A stretch of 64,000 nucleotides of DNA from a virus (lineage: Duplodnaviria > Heunggongvirae > Uroviricota > Caudoviricetes). Positions 2 to 20,214 of the stretch are shown one piece after another. The stretch lies in the IMG/VR virus record IMGVR_UViG_647533160_000003. One strand, 5' to 3'. The translations under genes were made by a program, and so were the position numbers. The notes beneath the pieces are model-generated. The model did not search any database. It saw only the letters and a list, made by a program, of their open reading frames with translations, and was not told where the DNA came from. How positions within the stretch are numbered: position 1 is the first letter of the stretch; each line of letters begins with the position of its first letter.

Positions 2-2293
2 GGAAACGTTGTTGTGCGTGCCTTCAGCGAGCAGTATCAGCTGGGCACGTTACAACAAACGCTGAAGTTTGTTGCCGGGCCGCTTGATGCAGCACATTCG
101 TCCATCACACTGAATCCTGATAAACCGGTGGTTGGCGGTACAGTTACGGCAATCTGGACGGCAAAAGATGCTAATGACAACCCTGTAACTGGCCTCAATC
201 CGGATGCACCGTCATTATCGGGCGCAGCTGCTGCTGGTTCTACGGCATCAGGCTGGACGGATAATGGCGACGGGACCTGGACTGCGCAGATTTCTCTGGG
301 TACTACGGTGGGCGAATTAGTGGTTATGCCGAAGCTAAATGGACAGGATGCGGCGGCTAATGCAGCTAAAGTTACCGTTGTGGCTGACACTTTATCTTCG
401 GGTCAGTCGAAGGTTTCTGTTGCTTCGGATAAGGTGAAAGCAGGAGACAGCACGATAGTGACGCTGGTAGCAAAAGATGCACATGGTAATGCAATCAGCG
501 GTCTTTCTCTATCTGCAACTCTGACGGGGGCCGCAGCTGAAGGGGCGACCATTTCAAATTGGGCTGAGGAAAACGGCGGCACCTATATTGCTACGTTTAC
601 CGCTGGTGTAAAAACGGGTGAGATTAGCATTATGCCGCTTATTAATGGTCAGCCCGCCGCCTCAGAAGCAGCGATTTTGACCGTTATCGCCCGGGATATT
701 TCATTAACTAATTCCACGCTTGTTGCGGATAATGGAACGCCAGTAGTCAAAACAACGACCAAACTGACATATATGGCGAAGGATGCGAATGGCAATCCTA
801 TTAGCGGGCTGAAACCTGATGCACCAGATTTTGGTGGTGTAGCCAACGCTGGAACAGAAAAACCCTCGATAGGTGAATGGAAGGAGCAGAGCGATGGTAT
901 CTATGTTACGACATTAACTTTAGGCTCTGCTGCGGGGCAGTTGGTCATTTGGCCAAGGGTAGACGGCAGAGATGCTGCTTCAAAACCTTTACTGTTGGAC
1001 GTTGTGGGTAATGCCACCGAAGCAAATATCAACGACATTTCAGTCGAGGTGGATAACCAACTGGCGAATGGACAGTCAGCTAACAAAGTAACACTGACAG
1101 TTGTGGACTCCTATGGCAACCCGTTACAGGGGCAAAATGTTACGCTGACTTTGCCAGAAGGTGTAACCAGTAAGACGGGCAATACTGTAACAACCAATGC
1201 GGCGGGTAAAGCTGATATTGAGTTGATGTCAACGGTTGCTGGGGAACACAATATTACTGCTTCGGTGAATGGAGCTCAGAAGACGGTTACGGTGACGTTC
1301 AATGCGGATGCCAGTTCTGGGCAGGTAAGTCTTCAGGTTGACGACAGCTCTCAAAGAGCAGCAAATGGCAGTGATGCCTTTACGCTGACGGCTATTGTTA
1401 AGGATAAAAATGGCAATGTAGTCCCTAGAGAGTTGGTGACGTTTAATCTACCTAAGGGCGTCACACCTGCTGCGGGAAAACACATTTGGGTGAGGACCGA
1501 CGATGAGGGTAAAGCGGAACTACAAGTAGTTTCCGTGATTGCTGGCTCGTATGAGGTCACGGCATCAACGGAAAATGAGCAGCCTTCAGATGCCAAGACG
1601 ATTACGTTTGTGGCTGACAAAGCTACAGCAACCATTTCTAGCATAGAGGTGATTAATAACTATGCTCTGGCAAATGGCAAAGATAAACAAACGTACAAGA
1701 TCACTGTAACAGATGCTAATAACAACCTCCTGAAAGGGAGTGAGGTATCGTTGAGTGCCAGTGCTAGTACCAGTCAGGGAGAATTAACTCTGTCTCCTAA
1801 CGGGGTTGCTACAACAGATGAGCAAGGGCTGGCTGTTTTCACGGCTACAACAACAACGGCTGCGACGTATACAGTGACGGCTACAGTTAAGCAGACTAAT
1901 GGTCAAACATCGACTAAAACAGCTGAGTCCAAATTTGTTGTGGATTACAAAAACGCAGTGCTTGCCGTCTCTCCTGAAAATATCGATTCTCTGGTGGCTG
2001 ACGGAGAAACAACCGCAACGCTAGAAATTACTCTTATGGCAGAGAACAATCCTGTCGGGGGGACTATGTGGGTTGAGATTCAGGCTCCGGAAGGCGTGAC
2101 GGAGGAGAATTATAAATTCCTGCCTTCTAAATTCGACCATTTTGTAAACGGGAAAATTACACGCAAATTTAGCACCACTAAGCCAGGAAAATATACATTA
2201 ACATTCAACTCTCTAAACTATGGAGGATACGAAATGGAACCGGTAACCATAACCATTAACGCTGTAGAGGCGAATGATAAGGTCGCGGAATAA
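2..2293 (+). CDS. Large Ig-like (Big) domain adhesin, invasin/intimin-type; 5'-partial, C-terminal part only
   Basis: Reading frame open to window edge; repeated ~100-aa T/V/A/G-rich units with 'KDANGNP..GL' and 'VTLTVVDSYGNPL' motifs typical of bacterial Ig-like repeats; stop at 2291-2293. Confidence 0.7.
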   Translation, partial: GNVVVRAFSEQYQLGTLQQTLKFVAGPLDAAHSSITLNPDKPVVGGTVTAIWTAKDANDNPVTGLNPDAPSLSGAAAAGSTASGWTDNGDGTWTAQISLGTTVGELVVMPKLNGQDAAANAAKVTVVADTLSSGQSKVSVASDKVKAGDSTIVTLVAKDAHGNAISGLSLSATLTGAAAEGATISNWAEENGGTYIATFTAGVKTGEISIMPLINGQPAASEAAILTVIARDISLTNSTLVADNGTPVVKTTTKLTYMAKDANGNPISGLKPDAPDFGGVANAGTEKPSIGEWKEQSDGIYVTTLTLGSAAGQLVIWPRVDGRDAASKPLLLDVVGNATEANINDISVEVDNQLANGQSANKVTLTVVDSYGNPLQGQNVTLTLPEGVTSKTGNTVTTNAAGKADIELMSTVAGEHNITASVNGAQKTVTVTFNADASSGQVSLQVDDSSQRAANGSDAFTLTAIVKDKNGNVVPRELVTFNLPKGVTPAAGKHIWVRTDDEGKAELQVVSVIAGSYEVTASTENEQPSDAKTITFVADKATATISSIEVINNYALANGKDKQTYKITVTDANNNLLKGSEVSLSASASTSQGELTLSPNGVATTDEQGLAVFTATTTTAATYTVTATVKQTNGQTSTKTAESKFVVDYKNAVLAVSPENIDSLVADGETTATLEITLMAENNPVGGTMWVEIQAPEGVTEENYKFLPSKFDHFVNGKITRKFSTTKPGKYTLTFNSLNYGGYEMEPVTITINAVEANDKVAE

Positions 2294-4011: not shown

Positions 4012-7000
4012 ATGACCCAAGTCGCGAAGAAAATTCTGGTGACGTGCGCGCTGCCGTACGCTAACGGCTCAATCCACCTCGGCCATATGCTGGAGCACAT
4101 CCAGGCTGATGTCTGGGTTCGTTACCAGCGAATGCGCGGCCACGAGGTTAATTTCATCTGTGCCGACGATGCCCACGGTACGCCGATCATGCTGAAAGCA
4201 CAGCAGCTTGGTATCACACCGGAGCAGATGATTGGCGAAATGAGTCAGGAACACCAGACTGATTTCGCAGGCTTTAACATCAGCTATGACAACTATCACT
4301 CGACGCACAGCGAAGAGAACCGCCAGCTGTCTGAGCTTATCTATACTCGCCTGAAAGAGAACGGTTTTATTAAAAACCGCACCATCTCTCAGCTGTACGA
4401 TCCGGAAAAAGGCATGTTCCTGCCGGATCGTTTTGTAAAAGGCACCTGCCCGAAATGTAAAGCACCTGATCAATATGGCGATAACTGTGAAGTCTGCGGC
4501 GCAACATATAGCCCGACTGAATTGATCGAACCGAAATCGGTGGTTTCTGGCGCTACGCCGGTAATGCGTGATTCTGAACACTTCTTCTTTGATCTGCCCT
4601 CTTTCAGCGAAATGTTGCAGGCATGGACCCGCAGCGGCGCGTTGCAGGAGCAGGTGGCAAACAAAATGCAGGAGTGGTTTGAATCTGGTCTGCAACAGTG
4701 GGATATCTCCCGCGACGCACCTTACTTCGGTTTTGAAATTCCGAACGCGCCGGGTAAATATTTCTACGTCTGGCTGGACGCACCGATTGGCTATATGGGC
4801 TCTTTCAAGAATCTGTGTGATAAGCGCGGCGACAGCGTAAGCTTCGATGAATACTGGAAGAAAGATTCCACCGCCGAGCTGTATCACTTCATCGGTAAAG
4901 ATATCGTTTACTTCCACAGCCTGTTCTGGCCAGCAATGCTGGAAGGCAGCAACTTCCGCAAGCCGACCAACCTGTTTGTTCACGGCTATGTGACAGTGAA
5001 CGGCGCGAAGATGTCCAAGTCTCGCGGCACCTTTATTAAAGCCAGCACCTGGCTGAATCATTTTGACGCCGACAGCCTGCGCTACTACTACACCGCCAAA
5101 CTGTCTTCGCGCATTGATGATATCGATCTCAACCTGGAGGATTTCGTTCAGCGCGTGAATGCCGATATTGTTAACAAAGTGGTTAACCTGGCCTCCCGTA
5201 ATGCAGGCTTTATCAACAAGCGTTTTGACGGCGTGCTGGCAAGCGAACTGGCTGACCCGCAACTGTACAAAACCTTTACTGATGCCGCTGAAGTGATTGG
5301 CGAAGCATGGGAAAGCCGCGAATTTGGTAAAGCTATCCGTGAAATCATGGCATTGGCTGACCTGGCTAACCGCTATGTCGATGAACAGGCTCCGTGGGTG
5401 GTGGCGAAGCAGGAAGGTCGCGATGCAGATCTGCAGGCGATTTGCTCTATGGGCATTAACCTGTTCCGCGTGCTGATGACGTACCTGAAACCGGTACTGC
5501 CAAAACTGACTGAACGTGCAGAGGCATTCCTCAATACGGAACTGACCTGGGATGGTATCCAGCAACCGCTGTTGGGCCATAAAGTGAATCCGTTCAAAGC
5601 TCTGTATAACCGTATCGATATGAAGCAGGTTGAAGCACTGGTGGAAGCGTCTAAAGAAGAAGTCAAAGCCGCTGCCGCACCGGTAACTGGCCCGCTGGCA
5701 GACGATCCGATTCAGGAAACCATCACCTTTGACGACTTCGCCAAAGTTGACCTGCGCGTGGCACTGATTGAAAACGCGGAGTTTGTCGAAGGNNNNNNNN
5801 NNNNNNNNNNNNNNNNNNNNNNNNNNNNNNNNNNNNNNNNNNNNNNNNNNNNNNNNNNNNNNNNNNNNNNNNNNNNNNNNNNNNNNNNNNNNNNNNNNNN
5901 NNNNNNNNNNNNNNNNNNNNNNNNNNNNNNNNNNNNNNNNNNNNNNNNNNNNNNNNNNNNNNNNNNNNNNNNNNNNNNNNNNNNNNNNNNNNNNNNNNNN
6001 NNNNNNNNNNNNNNNNNNNNNNNNNNNNNNNNNNNNNNNNNNNNNNNNNNNNNNNNNNNNNNNNNNNNNNNNNNNNNNNNNNNNNNNNNNNNNNNNNNNN
6101 NNNNNNNNNNNNNNNNNNNNNNNNNNNNNNNNNNNNNNNNNNNNNNNNNNNNNNNNNNNNNNNNNNNNNNNNNNNNNNNNNNNNNNNNNNNNNNNNNNNN
6201 NNNNNNNNNNNNNNNNNNNNNNNNNNNNNNNNNNNNNNNNNNNNNNNNNNNNNNNNNNNNNNNNNNNNNNNNNNNNNNNNNNNNNNNNNNNNNNNNNNNN
6301 NNNNNNNNNNNNNNNNNNNNNNNNNNNNNNNNNNNNNNNNNNNNNNNNNNNNNNNNNNNNNNNNNNNNNNNNNNNNNNNNNNNNNNNNNNNNNNNNNNNN
6401 NNNNNNNNNNNNNNNNNNNNNNNNNNNNNNNNNNNNNNNNNNNNNNNNNNNNNNNNNNNNNNNNNNNNNNNNNNNNNNNNNNNNNNNNNNNNNNNNNNNN
6501 NNNNNNNNNNNNNNNNNNNNNNNNNNNNNNNNNNNNNNNNNNNNNNNNNNNNNNNNNNNNNNNNNNNNNNNNNNNNNNNNNNNNNNNNNNNNNNNNNNNN
6601 NNNNNNNNNNNNNNNNNNNNNNNNNNNNNNNNNNNNNNNNNNNNNNNNNNNNNNNNNNNNNNNNNNNNNNNNNNNNNNNNNNNNNNNNNNNNNNNNNNNN
6701 NNNGCTGTTGGGCCATAAAAGTGAATCCGTTCAAAGCTCTGTATAACCGTATCGATATGAAGCAGGTTGAAGCACTGGTGGAAGCGTCTAAAGAAGAAGT
6801 CAAAGCCGCTGCCGCACCGGTAACTGGCCCGCTGGCAGACGATCCGATTCAGGAAACCATCACCTTTGACGACTTCGCCAAAGTTGACCTGCGCGTGGCA
6901 CTGATTGAAAACGCGGAGTTTGTCGAAGGTTCTGACAAACTGCTGCGCCTGACACTGGATCTCGGCGGAGAAAAACGTAATGTCTTCTCAGGCATTCGTT

Positions 7001-7279: not shown

Positions 7280-7317
7280 TCTACCTTTTGTTGATTGAGA
7301 TAATAAGCCACATAAGA

Positions 7318-7330
7318 AAACAAATTGTTT
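7318..7330. promoter_or_regulatory. 13-bp palindrome AAACAA-N-TTGTTT (site 2), 14 nt upstream of ATG 7344, preceded by GATAAT
   Basis: aaacaaattgttt. Confidence 0.6.
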
Positions 7331-7343
7331 CGGAGTGGTTGAA

Positions 7344-7865: not shown

Positions 7866-7959
7866 TCAAACCGTTGATAATGGCGGTCACAATTTGATTC
7901 TTTTCTATAAGAATCCGTTGATCGCCACTACTTCCCTTCCATACCCGCAATCACATCCT

Positions 7960-8760
7960 TAAATATCAATAATTTATAGTTGTTTATACAATCAAGAAAA
8001 CAACTGAATAACAGATCAACGAAACGTCAACGCTTTCACCTGATTTGGTCTAAAAAGTTGACGTTTTCACACATCACTTCTTATACCCGTAATCCCACGC
8101 AGCAGATAGCGCCACAGCGTCCAAATTTCACCACAGACGACTCAACACTACCAACAAAAACACACGCTCAAAATCGCTCCCGTTGCGTTACACAACCATA
8201 TAAACAACTTATTTCCAGGCATAACAAAACAACTAAATAACACACATGCCATTCCCAAAAACAACCAACCTCTTTATGGCAGGCTACCGAAAAGACCCAC
8301 CTCTTCTTCCCAGGCTACCGGACAACCAACCTAACTTTCACAGGCAATCCGAAAACATTCATACGCGCGATACTCACGACACGCCATTCCCCAAACAGCG
8401 AAGAAACACAGAACCACTGAACCCCCAACGAAGCCTGTAACCGCAAGGATTCTCTCAATCCCAAAAGACACGAAACAGAACAATCACGGGAAACGCCATT
8501 ACCCAATACACGAATAACTACAAAAGCCTTTCACGCACTCCAGACAAACACAATAACGAAAGGAATCGCCCACCTGCCATTACTCCATATACGGAGAAGA
8601 ACAATCACCAAAACGACGAGAACACCCCACAGAAGAACCACCGCAAAACGAACGAAACCATTTACACCGACAGAGAGAACAACACACCCAATTCACCAAC
8701 AGGAATAGTCGCCGTATAGAACGCTCTGGAAGGAGTGAGCATTAACGCCTATAGAGAGGT
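7960..8760 (+). other. Strand-asymmetric C+A-rich noncoding region with degenerate ~30-bp repeats
   Basis: Plus strand almost devoid of G and T over ~800 bp; repeated caggctaccg units near 8281-8342; ORFs here have non-protein-like composition. Confidence 0.6.
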
Positions 8761-8831
8761 TGAGACAGATAAAACACGAAGAAAACACAACATGTATAAC
8801 GAAGAAGCCAGGTATGTATAAGTGGGGAGGG

Positions 8832-8856
8832 AAGGAGGGGTGTCGCCTCCTTTTTC
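8832..8856 (+). terminator. Intrinsic terminator at end of CA-rich noncoding region
   Basis: aggagg-ggtgtcg-cctcct followed by TTTTT. Confidence 0.6.
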
Positions 8857-8939
8857 GTATTTATTCAACTCCTGATTTTATCCCCCGTAACACCCCTACG
8901 GTCAGCCTCCGGTCCATACAGGGAAAAGGCTGCATCCCG

Positions 8940-9055
8940 CTACAGAAACGGCTGGATTGCCTTCGGGGAACGGCTGGAGGTTTTCAGGGAAACGGTCGAG
9001 TTGCCTGTGTGGATTTCGGGAAAAGGTTCGATGCCGGTTCAGGAACGGTGGCGTA
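8940..9055. repeat. Iteron-like direct repeats GG(R)AACGG (5 copies, ~21-27 bp spacing)
   Basis: agaaacggctgga, gggaacggctgga, gggaaacggtcga, gggaaaaggttcga, aggaacggtggcg. Confidence 0.6.
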
Positions 9056-9387
9056 CCGGTATAGCGTGAGGGAGAGTTGCGGCTACCCACCTGTAATGTG
9101 CGGGAAGAAGAGAGGTGCTCACGTGCAGGCGGACTTACTTACCGCTGGATTCCCTCTGAATGCCCAGCTACAGCGTAATTGTGCCAGATAGCCAGCGGGT
9201 CACAATCGATTTCAGTAGGTTTTCGGGGAGAGGATTATTCTGCACACCAGCCACTTTCGGCCACTAAATCAGAATAATGTAAAAAGTGTACTCGGTACTG
9301 AACCTGAAAACTCACTGCTAAAACCACATTCACCGGAATAAAATCCTTTTTCGCTTATGTGTTATTACGATAATAACACCAATAAGA

Positions 9388-9400
9388 AAACATGTTGTTT
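9388..9400. promoter_or_regulatory. 13-bp palindrome family (site 3)
   Basis: aaacatgttgttt; preceded by cgataataacaccaataag. Confidence 0.55.
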
Positions 9401-9412
9401 AAGGATTGCTTT

Positions 9413-11332: not shown

Positions 11333-11815
11333 ATGAATTTTATCGCTACTGTAAACGCACCCGCACATGGCAATATCGCTGTAACGTTCTCTGACATTGA
11401 AAAACGAGTACTTGGTGCATGGCGCGACAATGAGACGGTAGAACTGTCAGCACAAGAAAAATGCATTATTGCACGCGACATCATTGGCAATCGTCGTTAC
11501 TCGCGGGTATTTGAGAAAGCGTATGTGGTAAATTCTGGATTCGGAACGTTCGTCTTTCCGGTGCGCTCCGGGCGATTCTGCCAGTCCAAGCTGATTGAGT
11601 TCGCTACGCAGATTTCTGTCTGGATTAAAACTCAATCGTCGTTCAAATTTTCCGACGATGAAGCAGTATCGCAGGGGATGCGGATCGCCAACAATGCAAT
11701 TAAATGCAAAAACATTACGTATACCGCTGGCGTTGATACATGGAAACTGTTTTGCGCTAACTTTATGCTGAATGTATACGCAAGCAACCGCATCCACATC
11801 CTTGATGGCGTGTAA
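11333..11815 (+). CDS. Hypothetical protein (160 aa)
   Basis: ATG 21 nt after palindrome 11300-11312, AAGGA RBS; followed by hairpin 11825-11846. Confidence 0.55.
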   Translation: MNFIATVNAPAHGNIAVTFSDIEKRVLGAWRDNETVELSAQEKCIIARDIIGNRRYSRVFEKAYVVNSGFGTFVFPVRSGRFCQSKLIEFATQISVWIKTQSSFKFSDDEAVSQGMRIANNAIKCKNITYTAGVDTWKLFCANFMLNVYASNRIHILDGV

Positions 11816-11824
11816 CTGAGAAGA

Positions 11825-11846
11825 GGGCCAGAAACGGCCCTTTCTC
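11825..11846 (+). terminator. Terminator hairpin after early gene cluster
   Basis: gggccagaaacggccc + TTTCTCT. Confidence 0.55.
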
Positions 11847-11869
11847 TATAGCCACCAGCTGCCGCAGGG

Positions 11870-11950
11870 AAATTTTCAGAAACGGCGAGGAACGTATTCA
11901 TGAGCCGACGGGAAACGGCTAGGATTTTTTCGGGAAACGGCTACATTTGC
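11870..11950. repeat. Second cluster of GGGAAACGGCT iteron-like repeats
   Basis: cagaaacggcgagg, gggaaacggctagg, gggaaacggctaca. Confidence 0.6.
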
Positions 11951-12067
11951 CTTTATGTAGAAAAACATCGGGAAGTTGGTTGAATCCAACCAGCGGTTGT
12001 CGGACAGGCGAGCGGGGAAATCATGATGACTTTCGTCGCCTGAGACATCCAGATTTCTTTCGTAGCG

Positions 12068-12109
12068 TAATCACATACGTGATTAAGTGGTGTGATTATG
12101 TGAAAAATC
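12068..12109. promoter_or_regulatory. Pair of inverted repeats with GTGATT/AATCAC half-sites (operator-like)
   Basis: aatcacatacgtgatt and gtgattatgtgaaaaatcac. Confidence 0.45.
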
Positions 12110-12429
12110 ACGCGCACATAATACGCGAGCGGATACGGAACAAAACAAAATGCCGATCCGCGCCGACAAATAAACGCGGATCACATAGCAAGACTAAAAG
12201 CCAATGATTAACTATGCGCTATAGCGCAATATAACGCGTTTTAAGCGCGTTAATGCGTTAAGTAATGGGTATGTACTGGCAAGGATATAAAAGCGCGTCT
12301 ATGGCGTTATTTTGGCGCTTATTGTTATGTTGTTGGAGTGAGTTAAAGACAATAAAAAACGCGCCAATGATGGCGCGTTATGGTGGAAGTATTGGAAACG
12401 AAAAAAGCGCCCATAGTGGGCGCTCGATT

Positions 12430-12933: not shown

Positions 12934-13584
12934 TTACGCTTTGAAAGCGTCAGCTAGATAATTGTAGAAATCATTTTTAATGAAGCGATATTGCTGAGTA
13001 CCAGCTTTTGCGCTCCCAGCTCCTTTGACTTTCTCAACAAGTCCGAGACGTTCGCAAAGATTGATCAACTGGTTGGCTTGAGTATAGCCAGCGTCCAATT
13101 TAATTTCGCACGCTTTTTTAGCTTCATTCATTAAATCGAAAACAGCGCCATTAGTGAACGTGTCGATCTCGTCGTTAATCATATCGATTAAAGCGAATAC
13201 ACGAGATCCTGACATATCAGCGACGGAATAAACGCATTTACCAGCTTTAATGGATTTAACCAGATAAACCAGTTTTTCCAGTGAATAACTATTAGTCATT
13301 GCATCACGGAAAAATACTTCTGGCGCTTGTTTGCTTGCTTTAATCGCATAGTAGAAAACAGAGCATAATTTTTCGTCTTCTACTGCGTTTACGACGTTGT
13401 TGATGAAGTAAGCAAGTTTAGTGGTCGCAGCTTGCATATTTGCTTTGTCTGCTTTAGTGTGCGTACCATTTTTATAATGTTCGTTATATGTTTGAGTTGC
13501 CAGATCTGCTTTTTCGCGCAGCTCGTCGGATACAATGGAAGCAGCTTCAATGATGGTTTTTTTAGAAATGATAATGTTAGCCAT
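12934..13584 (-). CDS. Hypothetical protein (216 aa)
   Basis: Minus-strand ORF with AT-rich upstream region 13590-13840. Confidence 0.5.
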   Translation of the reverse strand: MANIIISKKTIIEAASIVSDELREKADLATQTYNEHYKNGTHTKADKANMQAATTKLAYFINNVVNAVEDEKLCSVFYYAIKASKQAPEVFFRDAMTNSYSLEKLVYLVKSIKAGKCVYSVADMSGSRVFALIDMINDEIDTFTNGAVFDLMNEAKKACEIKLDAGYTQANQLINLCERLGLVEKVKGAGSAKAGTQQYRFIKNDFYNYLADAFKA

Positions 13585-13881: not shown

Positions 13882-14403
13882 TTAAAACGGAAGGATTCGT
13901 TCAACCCAATCGAAGAAAATAAGTATTTTTCTACCGTCTTCCAACTTAAGTGTGACTAGACAGGCGTCAACGCCATCTGACTTTCCCTCAATTTCGCGAC
14001 CGTCTGCCATGTAGACCCTTATAGATTTGCCGTTTTGGTAAGCCTGACGACATATCTTAAAAAAGTCACGACGTGATGGCTGATTAACCATCTGTTCATT
14101 GTTTAGCGTTAGTCGACCTGTGAATGAAGTGTCAACCTCTTCTATGCCCGACTCAATTGTGCTAATGCGCTCAAGAGGGAGCCTTATACGATTTGTGTTG
14201 CTAAGCGGATCTGGTGTGAGGTTCAGCTTATTTCTTGCGCTCAATAGCCCGTAGACATACATGCAAAACACTTGGCCGTCTTCGAGAGTGACTCTTACAG
14301 GAAATTGAGCACTCCGCCAGAAGAGCAAGGTGCGTTCAGCATGTTCGTAGTTTCGCGGCCATACTTCAGCCGGTATGCCGTAGGTGATGTCCAATGTTCT
14401 CAT
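13882..14403 (-). CDS. Hypothetical protein (173 aa)
   Basis: Minus-strand ORF overlapping upstream gene by 4 nt (operon). Confidence 0.5.
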   Translation of the reverse strand: MRTLDITYGIPAEVWPRNYEHAERTLLFWRSAQFPVRVTLEDGQVFCMYVYGLLSARNKLNLTPDPLSNTNRIRLPLERISTIESGIEEVDTSFTGRLTLNNEQMVNQPSRRDFFKICRQAYQNGKSIRVYMADGREIEGKSDGVDACLVTLKLEDGRKILIFFDWVERILPF

Positions 14404-18203: not shown

Positions 18204-18884
18204 ATGGATGTAAAAATCACGATTTTGCAGGTTGATGTTGCCAACCTTCGCCCGAATACCTGGAACACCAATTCGGTTGGTGCGCAGAATTTTGAAAAAC
18301 TGAAAGGTTCTATCGAAAAATTGGGCTTTTTTAAGCCAATTTTGGCTCGTGAACTTGAAGATGGATTTTTTGAAATCCTCGGCGGCGAACATCGCTGGCG
18401 TGCCGCTATTGAGCAAGGAATTTCAACGGTTCCAGTGCTTTCTGTGGGCAAAATTAGCGATGTCGTAGCTAAACAGATGTCACTGGTGGACAACGAGCGA
18501 TACGGTGAAGACGACCAAATCGCATTGCAACGCTTCATTGAAGAAATTCAGTCAGAACTTGACTATCAACTGTCTGAAATCGCCCCGTATGACGACGAAA
18601 TCTCGATGGTTTTAGCAAAAGAGGCGGCAATCGACCTTGAAGCACTGGAGGCGTTGTCTCGTGGTAGTGATGAGCCTGTCGATACCGACAAACGAGAGAA
18701 AACCGAACGTGTGGGTGCGGAACATCAGACCATGCGCTTCAAAGTAACTTTCGATGCGTCAGATCGTGTTGCAGAAACCATAAAAAACATCATCAAAGAG
18801 CAGGCTATTAACACCGGTAATGAAATGGAGAACGCTGGTGAGGCTCTGGTGTGGCTGGTCGACTACTACAAGGAGCGTATGTAA
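18204..18884 (+). CDS. ParB/Srx-like nuclease-domain protein
   Basis: N-terminal ParB-type motif 'EILGGEHRWRAA'; acidic C-terminus. Confidence 0.65.
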   Translation: MDVKITILQVDVANLRPNTWNTNSVGAQNFEKLKGSIEKLGFFKPILARELEDGFFEILGGEHRWRAAIEQGISTVPVLSVGKISDVVAKQMSLVDNERYGEDDQIALQRFIEEIQSELDYQLSEIAPYDDEISMVLAKEAAIDLEALEALSRGSDEPVDTDKREKTERVGAEHQTMRFKVTFDASDRVAETIKNIIKEQAINTGNEMENAGEALVWLVDYYKERM

Positions 18885-19552
18885 TGACCAAAAAGTTTGA
18901 AATCGTATATCGCGACCCGGCAGATCTTATTCCCTATGAGATGAATGCCAAAAAGCATGATGAACAGCAGATCCGAGATCTGGCCGCAGCCATTAAAAAG
19001 CGTGGATTTGACCAGCCAATTACGGTCGATAAGAACGACGTAATTATTACTGGCCACGGCCGCCGTGAGGCTGCAATTTTTGCTGGACTTGAGCGCGTAC
19101 CGGTTATTGTTCGCGATGATCTCAGTGATGACGAGGTTCGTGCGAAGCGCCTTGAAGATAACCGACTTGCCAGCATTGATTACGATGCAATTAAGCTACA
19201 GAAAGAGCTTGAGTCGCTTGTTCTGGACGATATCGAGGTTTTCGGCTTTGAAGAGCGTGAGTTGAATGTTCTCGTTGGCAGTATGACAGAAGAAATGGAC
19301 ACCGATTCGCTAGTTATCGATCTTGGCGAAGAAACTAAACGACAGAAGGATGAACACACCGAGATCAGTCGTGAAGTTGCAGCGGAAGAAGTACGTGTTG
19401 TCGACGTATTGGGCTTTAAAACGCTCCCTGCTGGCTCTGCCATTGTTGTTGGTGATTTGCTTGCCCACATGGAAGAAATGACGGGAGAAAGCGGGGTAGA
19501 CGCATTTGTGGCATATGCGGAGAAGATCTCTTCCGGGGAGATGGCTGCATGA
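18884..19552 (+). CDS. Second ParB/Srx-like nuclease-domain protein
   Basis: ATG overlapping upstream stop (TAATG); motif 'IITGHGRREAA'. Confidence 0.65.
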   Translation: MTKKFEIVYRDPADLIPYEMNAKKHDEQQIRDLAAAIKKRGFDQPITVDKNDVIITGHGRREAAIFAGLERVPVIVRDDLSDDEVRAKRLEDNRLASIDYDAIKLQKELESLVLDDIEVFGFEERELNVLVGSMTEEMDTDSLVIDLGEETKRQKDEHTEISREVAAEEVRVVDVLGFKTLPAGSAIVVGDLLAHMEEMTGESGVDAFVAYAEKISSGEMAA

Positions 19553-20214
19553 GCAAATACATCATCAACGTATCGTTTCAGACACGCGTAAATAAAACCA
19601 CGCGCACGTTGGAAATCGCTGAGTCGTTCGGGCTTGGCCTGGACGAAAAAGAGTGGACGCTTTACGACAATCTGGAGCTGGAAGTGAAGCAGGGCGATGT
19701 GGTGTACATCACCGGCCAATCCGGTTCCGGCAAATCCGTTGTGCTGCGCGAGTTGCAACGCCAGATGAAGAATGAAGGGCTTTCTGTAGCCTCCATCGAT
19801 GATTTTACCTTCGATAATGAGGTTAACGTCATCGATCAGTTGGGCAAAACGACCAGTGATGCGCTTGGGTTGTTATCTATGGCTGGTCTGAACGATGCAT
19901 ATCTGTTTGTTCGCAAGCCTTCTGAAATGTCAGACGGCCAGAAATATCGTCTCAAGATTGCCAAACTGATTGAGTCAGGCGCTAAAGTATGGGCTGCTGA
20001 CGAGTTCGGCGCTGTTCTCGACCGTGTAACCGCTCAGGTTGTGGCGTCTAACCTCCAGCGTGCCGCTCGAAAGGTTGGTGCGACGGTAATGGTGGCGACG
20101 ACTCACGAAGACCTGAAGAACGCGCTGCGCCCGGATATGCAGATCACCAAGCACTACAAAGAACGCGTGAAGGTGGAATATCACAATGGTAGTCATGATG
20201 AGGTCCATTCATGA
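19549..20214 (+). CDS. ABC-type ATPase domain protein
   Basis: Walker A 'GQSGSGKS', signature-like 'SDGQKYRL', Walker B 'VWAADEF', H-loop 'ATTHED'. Confidence 0.65.
   Translation: MSKYIINVSFQTRVNKTTRTLEIAESFGLGLDEKEWTLYDNLELEVKQGDVVYITGQSGSGKSVVLRELQRQMKNEGLSVASIDDFTFDNEVNVIDQLGKTTSDALGLLSMAGLNDAYLFVRKPSEMSDGQKYRLKIAKLIESGAKVWAADEFGAVLDRVTAQVVASNLQRAARKVGATVMVATTHEDLKNALRPDMQITKHYKERVKVEYHNGSHDEVHS

What the first reader, a model, noticed from the sequence alone, without database searches (positions are those of the whole stretch)
11816..12429. 600-bp noncoding hub between convergent gene blocks with terminator, iterons, operator-like inverted repeats and several GC hairpins
This interval contains a terminator (11825), the second iteron cluster, GTGATT/AATCAC inverted repeats (12068-12109) and palindromes gcgctatagcgc, aaacgcgccaatgatggcgcgtt and gcgcccatagtgggcgc. 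The only ORF (11947-12207) is Arg/Cys-rich and not protein-like. Candidate origin of replication or regulatory switch region.
Basis: seen in the sequence. Interest (0 to 1): 0.5.

Follow-up and report, generated by a model that had tools for sequence, protein, structure and literature searches.

The report
Conserved noncoding spacer with repeat array
This 614-base gap between two converging gene blocks of an SSU5/pHCM2-type phage-plasmid is truly noncoding and holds three transcription stop signals, a conserved array of short repeats that probably bind a protein, and a pair of recombination-hotspot (Chi) sequences, but its job (a second replication origin or a control region) is still unproven.

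Summary
The window is an E. coli SSU5/pHCM2/pMT1-type phage-plasmid. Region 11816-12429 is an unannotated spacer whose length is conserved (about 580-640 bp) in Escherichia, Klebsiella, Enterobacter, Citrobacter, Salmonella, Cronobacter and Yersinia pestis pMT1.

- **Coding:** it is noncoding. The ORFs are broken by frameshifts among near-identical relatives.
- **Terminators:** the hairpin at 11825 ends the rightward operon. Two of the "palindromes" (12358-12379 and 12405-12425) are tandem terminators of the leftward operon.
- **Repeats:** GAAACGGC occurs 4 times. This is the second of two same-sense arrays with mostly 22/33/44-bp spacing, and both are conserved across the family.
- **Not conserved:** the GTGATT/AATCAC repeats belong only to the E. 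coli lineage. gcgctatagcgc is a chance palindrome.

I also found an invariant Chi octamer (11852-11859) whose inverted partner is present in 50 of 53 relatives but degenerate here. There is a universally conserved leftward promoter-like element (-10 TATNAT at 12118-12123), and a recombinationally exchanged central module.

The plasmid's Rep gene and its different iterons lie 38 kb away, so this is not the prophage origin. My best guess (0.4) is a protein-binding cis element of the replication or copy-control type, possibly a lytic or auxiliary origin. A regulatory operator array, an antisense-RNA circuit and a plain terminator-and-recombination junction remain open.

The parts
11333..11815 (+). 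Flanking 160-aa gene (phrog_1641). It is the last gene of the rightward small-gene operon and always lies directly upstream of the spacer.
11825..11847 (+). Intrinsic terminator of the rightward operon: GGGCC-AGAAAC-GGCCC followed by TTTCTCT.
   Evidence: Sequence. A 5-bp G+C hairpin plus T-tract is kept in every lineage, although the stem register and sequence differ (GGGGC-TGGAAAC-GCCCC in others).
11852..11872 (.). Nearly invariant block CCACCAGCTGCCGCAGGGAAA. Its first 8 bases are a Chi octamer (GCTGGTGG) on the minus strand and form the left arm of a family-wide inverted repeat.
   Evidence: Present in 51 of 53 unique relatives.
11829..11943 (+). Repeat array 2: four same-sense copies of TTTC-R-GGRAAMGGY, with cores at 11831, 11879, 11912 and 11934 (spacing 48, 33, 22 bp).
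   Evidence: Cores are more conserved than spacers. One relative carries an extra 22-bp unit (EcCPE35). Kept in all lineages, including a relative whose 216-aa neighbouring protein is only 53% identical.
8923..9049 (+). Repeat array 1 (outside the finding): six copies of the same motif in the same orientation, spaced 22/22/22/31/22 bp, upstream of the rightward operon.
   Evidence: Conserved across lineages.
11949..11966 (.). Conserved block GCCTTTATGTAGAAAAAC next to the array. Its minus strand reads TTTTCTACA, a DnaA box with one mismatch.
11974..11982 (+). Degenerate right arm of the inverted repeat. The window has AGTTGGTTG where 50 of 53 relatives have (A)GCTGGTGG, a plus-strand Chi.
11967..12110 (.). 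Variable central module, E. coli 'type A'. It contains the hairpin GGCGA...TCGCC (12007-12040) and the AATCAC/GTGATT hexamers (12069-12111). Unrelated-looking types B, B2 and C replace it in other lineages, and it is exchanged by recombination in hybrids.
   Evidence: No consensus RNA structure on either strand.
12118..12148 (-). Candidate leftward promoter: -35 TTGTTT (12148-12143), a 19-nt spacer, and -10 TATTAT (12123-12118). The predicted start is near 12111, reading into the variable module and antisense to the repeats.
   Evidence: TATNAT is present in all 53 sequences, and only position 4 varies (T/C/G).
12140..12183 (-). Minus-strand terminator-like hairpin (11 pairs) plus T-run. It is found only in lineage type A and overlaps the -35 of the candidate promoter.
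   Evidence: Absent in types B and C, which instead have plus-strand hairpins at the equivalents of about 12230-12262 and 12300-12330.
12216..12227 (.). Palindrome GCGCTATAGCGC, not conserved and probably due to chance.
   Evidence: other lineages read CGCGCTAAAACGCT or TACTCTATAGCGC.
12262..12276. 15-mer GTAATGGGTATGTAC, identical in 12 of the 13 plasmid sequences aligned (Y. pestis pMT has ...ATGAG...) and nearly invariant among the 53 unique viral-contig sequences. It lies inside an A+T-richer conserved block (12193-12372, 58-64% A+T). Function unknown.
   Evidence: Lost in the most distant relative, L339.
12350..12379 (-). Second (inner) intrinsic terminator of the leftward operon: AACGCGCCA-TCAT-TGGCGCGTT followed by TTTTTTATTGTC.
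   Evidence: Stem invariant, loop variable across lineages.
12399..12425 (-). First intrinsic terminator of the leftward operon: GAGCGCCCA-CTA-TGGGCGCTT followed by TTTTCG. It is bidirectional, since the plus strand is followed by CGATTTTATT.
   Evidence: The same hairpin recurs 2-3 times after successive small genes in relatives.
12934..13584 (-). Nearby 216-aa protein (phrog_1513) with long N-terminal helices and a C-terminal winged-helix domain. It is a candidate DNA-binding partner, by inference only.

Best explanation
The interval is a conserved, noncoding, multi-part cis-acting DNA region of SSU5/pHCM2/pMT1-type phage-plasmids.

Shown:
- Its two ends are transcription stops. One terminator ends the rightward small-gene operon, and two tandem terminators end the leftward operon.
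- Between them lies an array of four same-sense repeats (TTTC-R-GGRAAMGGY) on a roughly 11-bp phase. It is the downstream partner of a six-copy array 2.9 kb upstream, so the two arrays bracket the rightward operon.
- In most relatives, repeats 2-4 are enclosed by an exact inverted pair of Chi octamers.
- To the right come a recombinationally exchangeable module, a conserved leftward promoter-like element and an A+T-richer conserved block.

Inferred:
- The repeats are binding sites for a DNA-binding protein encoded by the element. Candidates are the neighbouring 216-aa winged-helix protein and the 160-aa protein.
- The paired arrays work as a replication or copy-control locus, that is, an auxiliary or lytic-phase origin with a distant partner array. 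This would resemble P4 ori/crr or the iteron sets that flank P1 repA.
- The locus is distinct from the prophage plasmid origin, which lies 38 kb away.
- The outward-facing Chi pair would stop RecBCD before it reaches the array, the orientation seen around a bidirectional origin.
For: - Clustering and phasing of the repeats are far beyond chance.
- Both arrays are kept in lineages that are only about 60% identical over the spacer. Cores are more conserved than spacers (0.94 against 0.79), and copy number changes by one 22-bp unit.
- There is no conserved RNA structure over either array on either strand. No Rfam family matches. No conserved ORF exists. These results favour a DNA-level role.
- Spacings are mostly 22, 33, 34 or 44 bp, which puts the sites on one face of the helix.
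- The plasmid Rep locus is elsewhere and uses different iterons, and a ParA-type partition ATPase is elsewhere. The arrays therefore belong to neither of those systems.
- A winged-helix protein is encoded 0.5 kb away in conserved synteny. It is silent in the lysogen, which fits a lytic-phase role.
- The Chi octamer and its inverted partner survive in a module that is otherwise unalignable between lineages. An A+T-richer block is conserved.
Against: - No recognisable initiator gene is adjacent. The 160-aa protein has no structural match, and winged-helix folds are generic.
- There is no exact DnaA box or IHF site, and the A+T-richer block is only about 60% A+T and lies about 250 bp from the array.
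- The spacer sits at a convergent junction, not a divergent one, and GC skew shows no switch there.
- Chi sites occur in both orientations all round the plasmid.
- The window itself and pHCM2 lack the right Chi arm.
- A Serratia-like relative keeps only one canonical repeat and no upstream array, so the arrays are not indispensable.
- There is no experimental datum on replication, protein binding or transcription for this spacer.
Confidence: 0.4

Rival explanations
1. Transcriptional control region. The two arrays are operator-type sites for a regulator that brackets the rightward operon, from upstream of its promoter to just past its terminator. The regulator represses or insulates the operon by DNA looping or spreading. 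The variable central module and the leftward promoter form part of a lineage-specific switch.
For: - The arrays flank one transcription unit from promoter side to terminator.
- The rightward unit is partly on and the leftward unit is off in a lysogen.
- The central module exists in discrete exchangeable types, and its type tracks the N-terminal allele of the adjacent winged-helix protein in 50 loci, including recombinants.
- A conserved promoter-like element is present.
Against: - Array 2 lies downstream of a terminator, with no plus-strand gene after it.
- Array 1 ends about 300 bp from the nearest promoter-like sequence.
- No motif is shared with the winged-helix gene's own upstream region.
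- The module/allele association is confounded by 1-kb linkage, and it fails for B against C in L297.
Confidence: 0.25
2. An ordinary junction. Only the terminators are functional. The repeats are remnants of tandem duplication around the terminator, and the Chi octamers simply make this spacer a recombination hotspot where modules are swapped.
For: - Terminators account for both ends of the spacer.
- Mosaic breakpoints fall inside the spacer.
- The spacer holds 1 to 4 Chi octamers (2 to 4 in 50 of 53 relatives) against about one per 4.5 kb elsewhere.
- Repeat number varies, and one lineage has a single copy.
- The window lacks one Chi arm.
Against: - Neutral remnants should not keep their cores better than their spacers across lineages that are about 60% identical, nor keep two separate arrays with the same phase and orientation.
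- A spacer length of about 600 bp is conserved in seven genera.
Confidence: 0.2
3. RNA-based circuit. The conserved leftward promoter makes an RNA that runs through the variable module and across array 2. The RNA therefore carries four copies of the complement (CCGUUUCCC). These pair with the six GGGAAACGG copies in the long leader of the rightward operon, or act as an antisense to the 3' end of the 160-aa gene. This would be a P4 CI or P1 c4-like control.
For: - The -10 TATNAT is conserved in 53 of 53 sequences, with variation only at the least critical position.
- Both arrays are in the same sense, so a minus-strand RNA over array 2 is complementary to a plus-strand RNA over array 1.
- Other phage-plasmids (P1, N15, with satellite P4) use such RNAs (my own knowledge).
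- In lineage A, one stem pair runs C-G, then U-G, then U-A on the plus strand.
Against: - No consensus secondary structure or covariation appears on either strand, and there is no Rfam hit.
- No intrinsic terminator lies downstream of the candidate promoter on the minus strand in any lineage.
- The promoter has a poor -35 and a 19-nt spacer.
- No sRNA was reported from this spacer in a Y. pestis pMT1 RNA-seq study; the two pMT1 sRNAs map elsewhere.
- The 11-bp phasing of the repeats has no rationale in RNA.
Confidence: 0.1
4. Plasmid partition site (centromere) made of direct repeats.
For: Arrays of phased direct repeats, sometimes in two clusters flanking an operon, are typical of type Ib, II and III centromeres (my own knowledge). 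The winged-helix model resembles TubR among many other proteins.
Against: - A ParA-type ATPase operon lies 40 kb away, with no such repeats next to it.
- No NTPase is encoded between or beside the arrays.
- The winged-helix gene is silent in the plasmid state.
Confidence: 0.05

Closest known systems
Iteron sets flanking the initiator gene in P1 (incC-repA-incA) and F/RepFIB replicons
   Same: Two same-sense arrays of short direct repeats bracket a transcription unit. Spacing follows the helical phase, and copy number varies by whole units.
   Different: No Rep-family gene lies between or beside the arrays. The element's real P1/RepFIB-like replicon, a RepB-family gene with TATGCTGTCAGCGGT iterons and a GATC-rich region, is 38 kb away. 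There is no exact DnaA box.
Satellite phage P4 bipartite origin (ori plus crr, both carrying the alpha-protein-binding octamer, about 4.5 kb apart)
   Same: Two clusters of one short repeat lie kilobases apart in a phage-type element. This would explain why a second array exists far from the first.
   Different: No alpha-type primase-helicase was identified next to the arrays. Dependence of replication on either array is untested. The resemblance is recalled from memory and was not tested.
Rho-independent terminators at convergent operon ends, including tandem and bidirectional ones
   Same: Each is a G+C hairpin followed by a T-run directly after a stop codon. Stems are conserved and loops are free to vary.
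   Different: Nothing unusual. This part of the finding is ordinary.
Chi (GCTGGTGG) recombination hotspots, oriented outward around the E. coli replication origin
   Same: The exact octamer is on the minus strand at the left and, in 50 of 53 relatives, on the plus strand at the right. RecBCD arriving from either side would therefore meet an active Chi before the repeats.
   Different: The pair is also a perfect 8-12-bp inverted repeat, so a stem or a two-site protein target is equally possible. The window's right arm is mutated. Plasmid-wide Chi orientation shows no clean polarity.
Antisense or immunity RNAs of phage-plasmids (P1 c4, N15 CA, P4 CI)
   Same: Repeated complementary sequence elements lie at two places in one control region of a phage-plasmid, with a promoter-like element pointing into them.
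   Different: There is no Rfam match, no conserved fold and no terminator. This is not supported as membership.

Membership tests
Iteron-type replication origin | Three or more direct repeats of about 17-22 bp on a helical phase | tested here: met
   Array 2 has four copies, with the last three spaced 33 and 22 bp. Array 1 has six copies spaced 22/22/22/31/22 bp. Both are conserved in relatives.
Iteron-type replication origin | A linked initiator (Rep) gene whose product binds the repeats | tested here: not met
   Neighbouring proteins have no Pfam Rep domain. The 160-aa protein has no structural match. The 216-aa protein has a generic winged helix only. The RepB-family gene lies 38 kb away and uses different iterons.
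Iteron-type replication origin | An adjacent A+T-rich unwinding element and DnaA/IHF sites | tested here: inconclusive
   A 58-64% A+T block at 12193-12372 is conserved but lies about 250 bp from the array. Only DnaA boxes with one mismatch are present, and there is no IHF consensus.
Iteron-type replication origin | Supports autonomous or initiator-dependent replication | not testable with these tools
   Needs cloning and replication assays or marker-frequency sequencing.
Intrinsic (Rho-independent) terminator | A G+C-rich hairpin immediately followed by a T-run, downstream of a stop codon on the same strand | tested here: met
   Plus strand: 11825-11847. Minus strand: 12425-12399 and 12379-12350. 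The hairpins are retained in all lineages.
Chi site | The exact octamer 5'-GCTGGTGG-3' | tested here: met
   The minus-strand octamer is at 11852-11859. The plus-strand partner is present in 50 of 53 relatives, but the window has AGTTGGTTG at 11974-11982.
Chi site | Attenuates RecBCD and stimulates recombination in vivo | not testable with these tools
   Needs genetic assays in recBCD+ against recD or recB hosts.
Structured regulatory RNA (Rfam families, including phage antisense RNAs) | A match to a curated covariance model, or a conserved secondary structure with covariation | tested here: not met
   No Rfam hit at gathering thresholds in the window. Only chance-level hits appear at E<5. RNAalifold consensus energies are 0 to -5 kcal/mol across 11990-12360 on both strands, and -17 and -24 kcal/mol across 11816-11990, where the terminator hairpin accounts for most of the structure. 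The covariation term is unfavourable everywhere.
Protein-coding gene (ORF 11947-12207 or the 50-aa ORF that PGAP sometimes calls) | Reading frame conserved among relatives | tested here: not met
   The frame and stop positions change through indels among 21 relatives that are more than 94% identical. The ORF is absent from types B and C.
Plasmid centromere (parS/parC) | Repeats adjacent to a partition NTPase and adaptor operon | tested here: not met
   The ParA-type ATPase lies at 52285-52953, 40 kb away, with no repeat motif near it.

The most novel reading that the evidence does not exclude
The two same-sense repeat arrays and the universally conserved leftward promoter form an RNA-RNA control circuit. 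A leftward transcript would carry four anti-repeat sequences that pair with the six repeats in the leader of the rightward operon. That would be a P4 CI or P1 c4-like immunity or timing switch, not described in the SSU5-related papers I searched. The exchangeable central module would act as its specificity determinant.
Probability: 0.08. Interest if true: 0.75.

Novelty: new variant of a known kind. Interest (0 to 1): 0.4.

Why it matters
SSU5/pHCM2-type phage-plasmids are common in clinical Enterobacterales. This spacer matched 784 plasmid records in PLSDB, and it is present in 239 of 5,426 complete E. coli genomes, in Typhi pHCM2 and in Y. pestis pMT1. These elements also carry resistance genes.

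In the papers I searched I found no description of their lytic origin, copy-number control or lysis-lysogeny wiring. If the paired repeat arrays prove to be a second origin or a copy-control locus, that would help explain how these elements shift from about 5 copies to lytic amplification. It would also provide a handle for incompatibility-based curing and for typing.

If the spacer is only a terminator-and-recombination junction, it still marks a Chi-rich breakpoint where modules are exchanged between lineages.

Tried and rejected
- **Conserved protein or small peptide in the spacer.** Rejected: frames break among close relatives, and the 50-aa ORF that PGAP occasionally calls is not conserved.
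- **Known RNA family or tRNA.** None found.
- **Conserved RNA fold over the arrays, the centre or the right half, on either strand.** None found. Single-sequence folds were uninformative.
- **Compensatory changes in the plus-strand terminator.** The stem differs between lineages by a register shift, so there is no true both-sides covariation.
- **Iterons of the plasmid Rep protein.** Rejected: different sequence and location.
- **Centromere.** Rejected as unlikely: the ParA operon is elsewhere.
- **Sequence match of the 216-aa protein to PDB.** None found.
- **Motif shared between the spacer and the winged-helix gene's own upstream region.** None found.
- **Published sRNAs on pMT1.** The two reported ones map elsewhere.
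- **Literature on SSU5 origin or iterons.** Nothing covers this spacer. One 2026 preprint could not be opened.
- **Scans of genome contigs and viral contigs with a 14-mer.** They returned only chance matches, and the single genome-contig scan was wasted.
- **Plasmid-wide Chi polarity or GC skew as an origin marker.** No clean switch at the spacer.
- **Similarity between the 15-mer (12262-12276) and the GCCATT(A/C)C repeats of the C/A-rich region.** Too weak to use.
Full report
**Identity of the window.**
- The 1.65 kb around the finding is 97-98% identical to E. coli phage-plasmids of the SSU5/pHCM2 family. These include Escherichia phages CMS-2020a, PhiR41_1 and Cyrano, and plasmid p09EL50 of O104:H4.
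- A sensitive search with the 614-bp interval alone finds it in 784 plasmid records of Escherichia, Klebsiella, Enterobacter, Yersinia pestis (pMT1), Salmonella (including Typhi pHCM2), Citrobacter and Cronobacter. Matches nearly always run full length at 66-97% identity, and features are only rarely annotated under the match.
- In complete E. coli genomes it occurs in 239 of 5,426, always on plasmids.
- Synteny is constant: a 483-nt gene (160 aa, phrog_1641) on the plus strand, then the spacer. On the minus strand follow zero to three small genes, a 651-nt gene (216 aa, phrog_1513) and usually a FljA-like repressor gene.

**Is it noncoding?** Yes.
- RefSeq and GenBank records leave it empty. 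Some PGAP runs call a 50-aa minus-strand ORF.
- Among 21 unique relatives more than 94% identical to the window, every ORF of 40 aa or more in the spacer changes frame, start or stop through small indels.
- The more distant lineages have unrelated sequence there.
- No tRNA and no Rfam family is found, either at curated thresholds or at E<5.

**The two ends are transcription stops.**
- Ten bases after the stop codon of the 160-aa gene lies GGGCC-AGAAAC-GGCCC followed by TTTCTCT (11825-11847).
- All lineages keep a 5-bp G+C hairpin and T-tract here, although the stem sequence and register differ. Because of that register shift, a formal pair count shows no both-sides covariation. The support is therefore retention of the hairpin, not compensatory change.
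- On the other side, the 76-aa gene is followed on the minus strand by two hairpins, each with a T-run: 12425-12405 and 12379-12358.
- Their stems are invariant across the family, while the loop of the second varies freely (ATGA, TCAT, TTGT, ACAA).
The first also has a T-rich tail on the plus strand and so is bidirectional.
- Terminator-like sites are enriched in the interval (10 against 2.2 +/- 1.4), and consensus sigma-70 promoters are absent (0 against 3.6).

**The repeats are real and selected.**
- GAAACGGC occurs at 11831, 11879, 11912 and 11934. That is 4 of the 6 matches in 64 kb, against 2.26 expected for the whole window. No random placement out of 200,000 put four of six sites within 111 bp.
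- A slightly degenerate pattern finds six more copies at 8923-9049, spaced 22, 22, 22, 31 and 22 bp, all in the same orientation.
- The fuller consensus is TTTC-R-GGRAAMGGY.
- Both arrays are present in every lineage sampled. Array 1 has 3-6 copies and lies 1.4-3.3 kb upstream.
- One E. coli plasmid has an extra, exact 22-bp unit in array 2.
- Across 53 unique spacer sequences from 77 viral contigs, repeat cores are more conserved than the spacers between them (mean column identity 0.94 against 0.79).
- Spacings are mainly multiples of about 11 bp.
- RNAalifold finds no conserved fold over either array on either strand.
- A relative whose 216-aa neighbouring protein is only 53% identical still has 4-5 copies and an upstream array. 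A Serratia-like relative keeps one perfect copy (ATTTTCGGGAAACGGCC) and no upstream array.
- I conclude that the repeats are most likely protein-binding DNA sites, although multiple copies are not indispensable.

**It is not the plasmid origin and not the centromere.**
- In p09EL50 the RepB-family initiator gene lies 38 kb from the spacer. It is followed by about 13 copies of TATGCTGTCAGCGGT and preceded by a GATC-rich stretch, a P1/RepFIB-like arrangement.
- A ParA-type ATPase (222 aa) is at window 52285-52953.
- Outside the two arrays, the GGGAAACGG-type motif occurs only as isolated single matches in more than 100 kb of the element, with no third cluster.

- The nearly invariant block CCACCAGCTGCCGCAGGGAAA (11852-11872) begins with the complement of Chi.
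- In 50 of 53 relatives an exact inverted partner, (A)GCTGGTGG, lies 113-161 nt to the right. This gives an 8-12-bp inverted repeat that encloses repeats 2-4 and the conserved block GCCTTTATGTAGAAAAC.
- The partner survives inside a module that is otherwise unalignable between lineages. That points to constraint on the sequence itself rather than on pairing alone.
- The window is an exception, because its right arm reads AGTTGGTTG (11974-11982). pHCM2 has deleted that arm.
- The arms face outward, so RecBCD arriving from either side would meet an active Chi before the array. This is the orientation found around a bidirectional origin.
- Three points keep this from being proof of an origin. Chi is generally abundant in the element (12 in the window against 1.4 expected; 24 in p09EL50). 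It occurs in both orientations, without a clean polarity switch. GC skew also shows no switch.
- The Chi density may equally explain why mosaic breakpoints fall here.

**The centre is an exchangeable module.**
- Positions 11967-12110 exist in at least three forms. Type A is found in E. coli, including the window. Types B and B2 are found in Salmonella, Citrobacter, Enterobacter, Yersinia and Cronobacter. Type C is a shorter Klebsiella form.
Types B and B2 have a looser set of GTGNNTA-like words.
- E. fergusonii-like hybrids carry type A flanks with a type B centre. They are also B-like from 12654 onward.
- In 50 loci, type A against non-A of the module matches the N-terminal allele of the 216-aa protein. 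The two are only 1 kb apart, so linkage may be the cause, and one locus is discordant for B against C.
- Each type has a hairpin at about the same place (A: GGCGA...TCGCC, 12007-12040). Within type A that stem shows C-G, U-G and U-A variants. This is one pair only, so it is weak evidence.

**A conserved leftward promoter-like element.**
- A position-weight scan of all 53 sequences found one element present in every sequence. It lies on the minus strand: -10 TATTAT/TATCAT/TATGAT (12123-12118), preceded after a constant 19 nt by TTGTTT/TTGGCG-like hexamers.
- Only the fourth -10 position varies, as expected for a working -10. The -35 is poor and the spacer is long.
- A transcript from here would cross the variable module and run antisense over array 2 and into the 160-aa gene. 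No minus-strand terminator follows it in any lineage.
- In type A, a strong minus-strand hairpin plus T-run (12183-12140) sits just upstream. Types B and C instead have plus-strand terminator-like hairpins at the equivalents of about 12230-12262 and 12300-12330.
- No plus-strand promoter is conserved.

**The right half.**
- Positions 12193-12372 are 58-64% A+T in all lineages, against 36-53% to their left.
- This stretch contains the 15-mer GTAATGGGTATGTAC (12262-12276). It is identical in 12 of the 13 plasmid sequences (Y. pestis pMT has one substitution) and nearly invariant in the larger set. It is lost in the most distant relative.
- gcgctatagcgc (12216-12227) is not palindromic elsewhere.
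- There is no exact DnaA box or IHF consensus. The conserved TGTAGAAAA is a DnaA box with one mismatch.

**Candidate partners.**
- The 160-aa protein folds confidently (pLDDT 85) but has no structural relative.
- In published RNA-seq of the Cyrano lysogen LF82 (PMC9928086, S1 table), the 160-aa gene is moderately expressed (25.5). The 76-aa and 216-aa genes are at the floor (4.99 and 5.9).
- The spacer therefore separates a unit that is partly on in the prophage from one that is off.
- A Y. pestis RNA-seq survey reported no sRNA from this spacer; its two pMT1 sRNAs map elsewhere.

**Verdict.**
- Part of it, the three terminators, is ordinary.
- The repeat arrays, the Chi inverted pair, the exchangeable module and the conserved leftward promoter-like element have not been described in the SSU5-related papers I searched.
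- I rate a protein-bound replication or copy-control locus, distinct from the prophage origin, as the most likely function (0.4). A transcriptional operator/looping region follows at 0.25, a plain terminator-plus-recombination junction at 0.2, an antisense-RNA circuit at 0.1 and a centromere at 0.05.
- All of these functional assignments are inference. The deciding experiments are listed under next steps.

Noticed in passing
window 7950-8860: About 800-900 bp with no annotated gene in RefSeq and a strongly C/A-rich, G-poor plus strand (GC skew -0.3 to -0.6, AT skew up to +0.65). A conserved promoter-like TTGACG-17-TTATAC sits inside an 11-bp inverted repeat (about 8020-8095), and the stretch ends at a hairpin plus T-run (8833-8858), just before repeat array 1. 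The composition is conserved in other lineages, and GCCATT(A/C)C recurs four times. It may be a long noncoding RNA or part of the same cis-acting region.
   Followed up: partly
window 7285-7340 and 9355-9410: Two similar promoter/leader-like units (GATAATAA..CCA.ATAAGAAAACA..TTGTTT) lie directly upstream of plus-strand genes.
   Followed up: no
window 5793-6703: A run of 911 N (masked sequence) lies inside what relatives annotate as a methionyl-tRNA synthetase gene. ORF calls across it are unreliable.
   Followed up: no
L264 4076/4347/4617; L295 4051/4298 and 38 other loci: The terminator hairpin GCGCCCATAGTGGGCGC recurs two or three times at intervals of about 250-270 or about 500 bp, after successive small minus-strand genes in relatives. 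This looks like cassette-style small gene plus terminator units. The window has one copy (12407).
   Followed up: partly
window 13882-14403 (-): A full-length homologue of FljA, the repressor of phase-1 flagellin (PF03614, E=2e-68), is encoded on the phage-plasmid. It is expressed in the Cyrano lysogen (CYRAN_114, about 18).
   Followed up: no
window 12934-13584 (-): The 216-aa protein, conserved only in this phage-plasmid family, is predicted to have long N-terminal helices and a C-terminal winged helix. Its N-terminal 75 residues come in discrete allelic types.
   Followed up: yes
whole window; p09EL50: Chi octamers are about ten times over-represented (12 in 64 kb against 1.4 expected; 24 in the 109-kb p09EL50). 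Most are on the gene-sense strand.
   Followed up: partly
L340 4995-6648 (Serratia-like relative): The winged-helix gene is inverted relative to the 160-aa gene. The spacer there carries a near-consensus promoter (TTGCAC-16-TATAAT) for it, only one canonical repeat, and no FljA-like gene.
   Followed up: partly
window 18204-20214 (+): Two consecutive ParB N-terminal-domain proteins and an ABC/AAA-type ATPase lie upstream of the terminase genes. They are divergent from the UvsW-like helicase operon. This trio is conserved in distant relatives (L339, L340).
   Followed up: no
window 14-2293 (+): A 759-aa invasin/Big_1-repeat protein occupies the place where p09EL50 has toprim, DUF551 and other small genes. 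This is an accessory-gene replacement.
   Followed up: no
NC_018651.1, NZ_CP045164.1, pHCM2 and Klebsiella records: RefSeq locus-tag numbering skips one tag exactly at this spacer in several plasmids (for example O3M_RS26645 and GCK68_RS21610). A feature may once have been called there and later withdrawn, or may be hidden from the plasmid gene table.
   Followed up: partly
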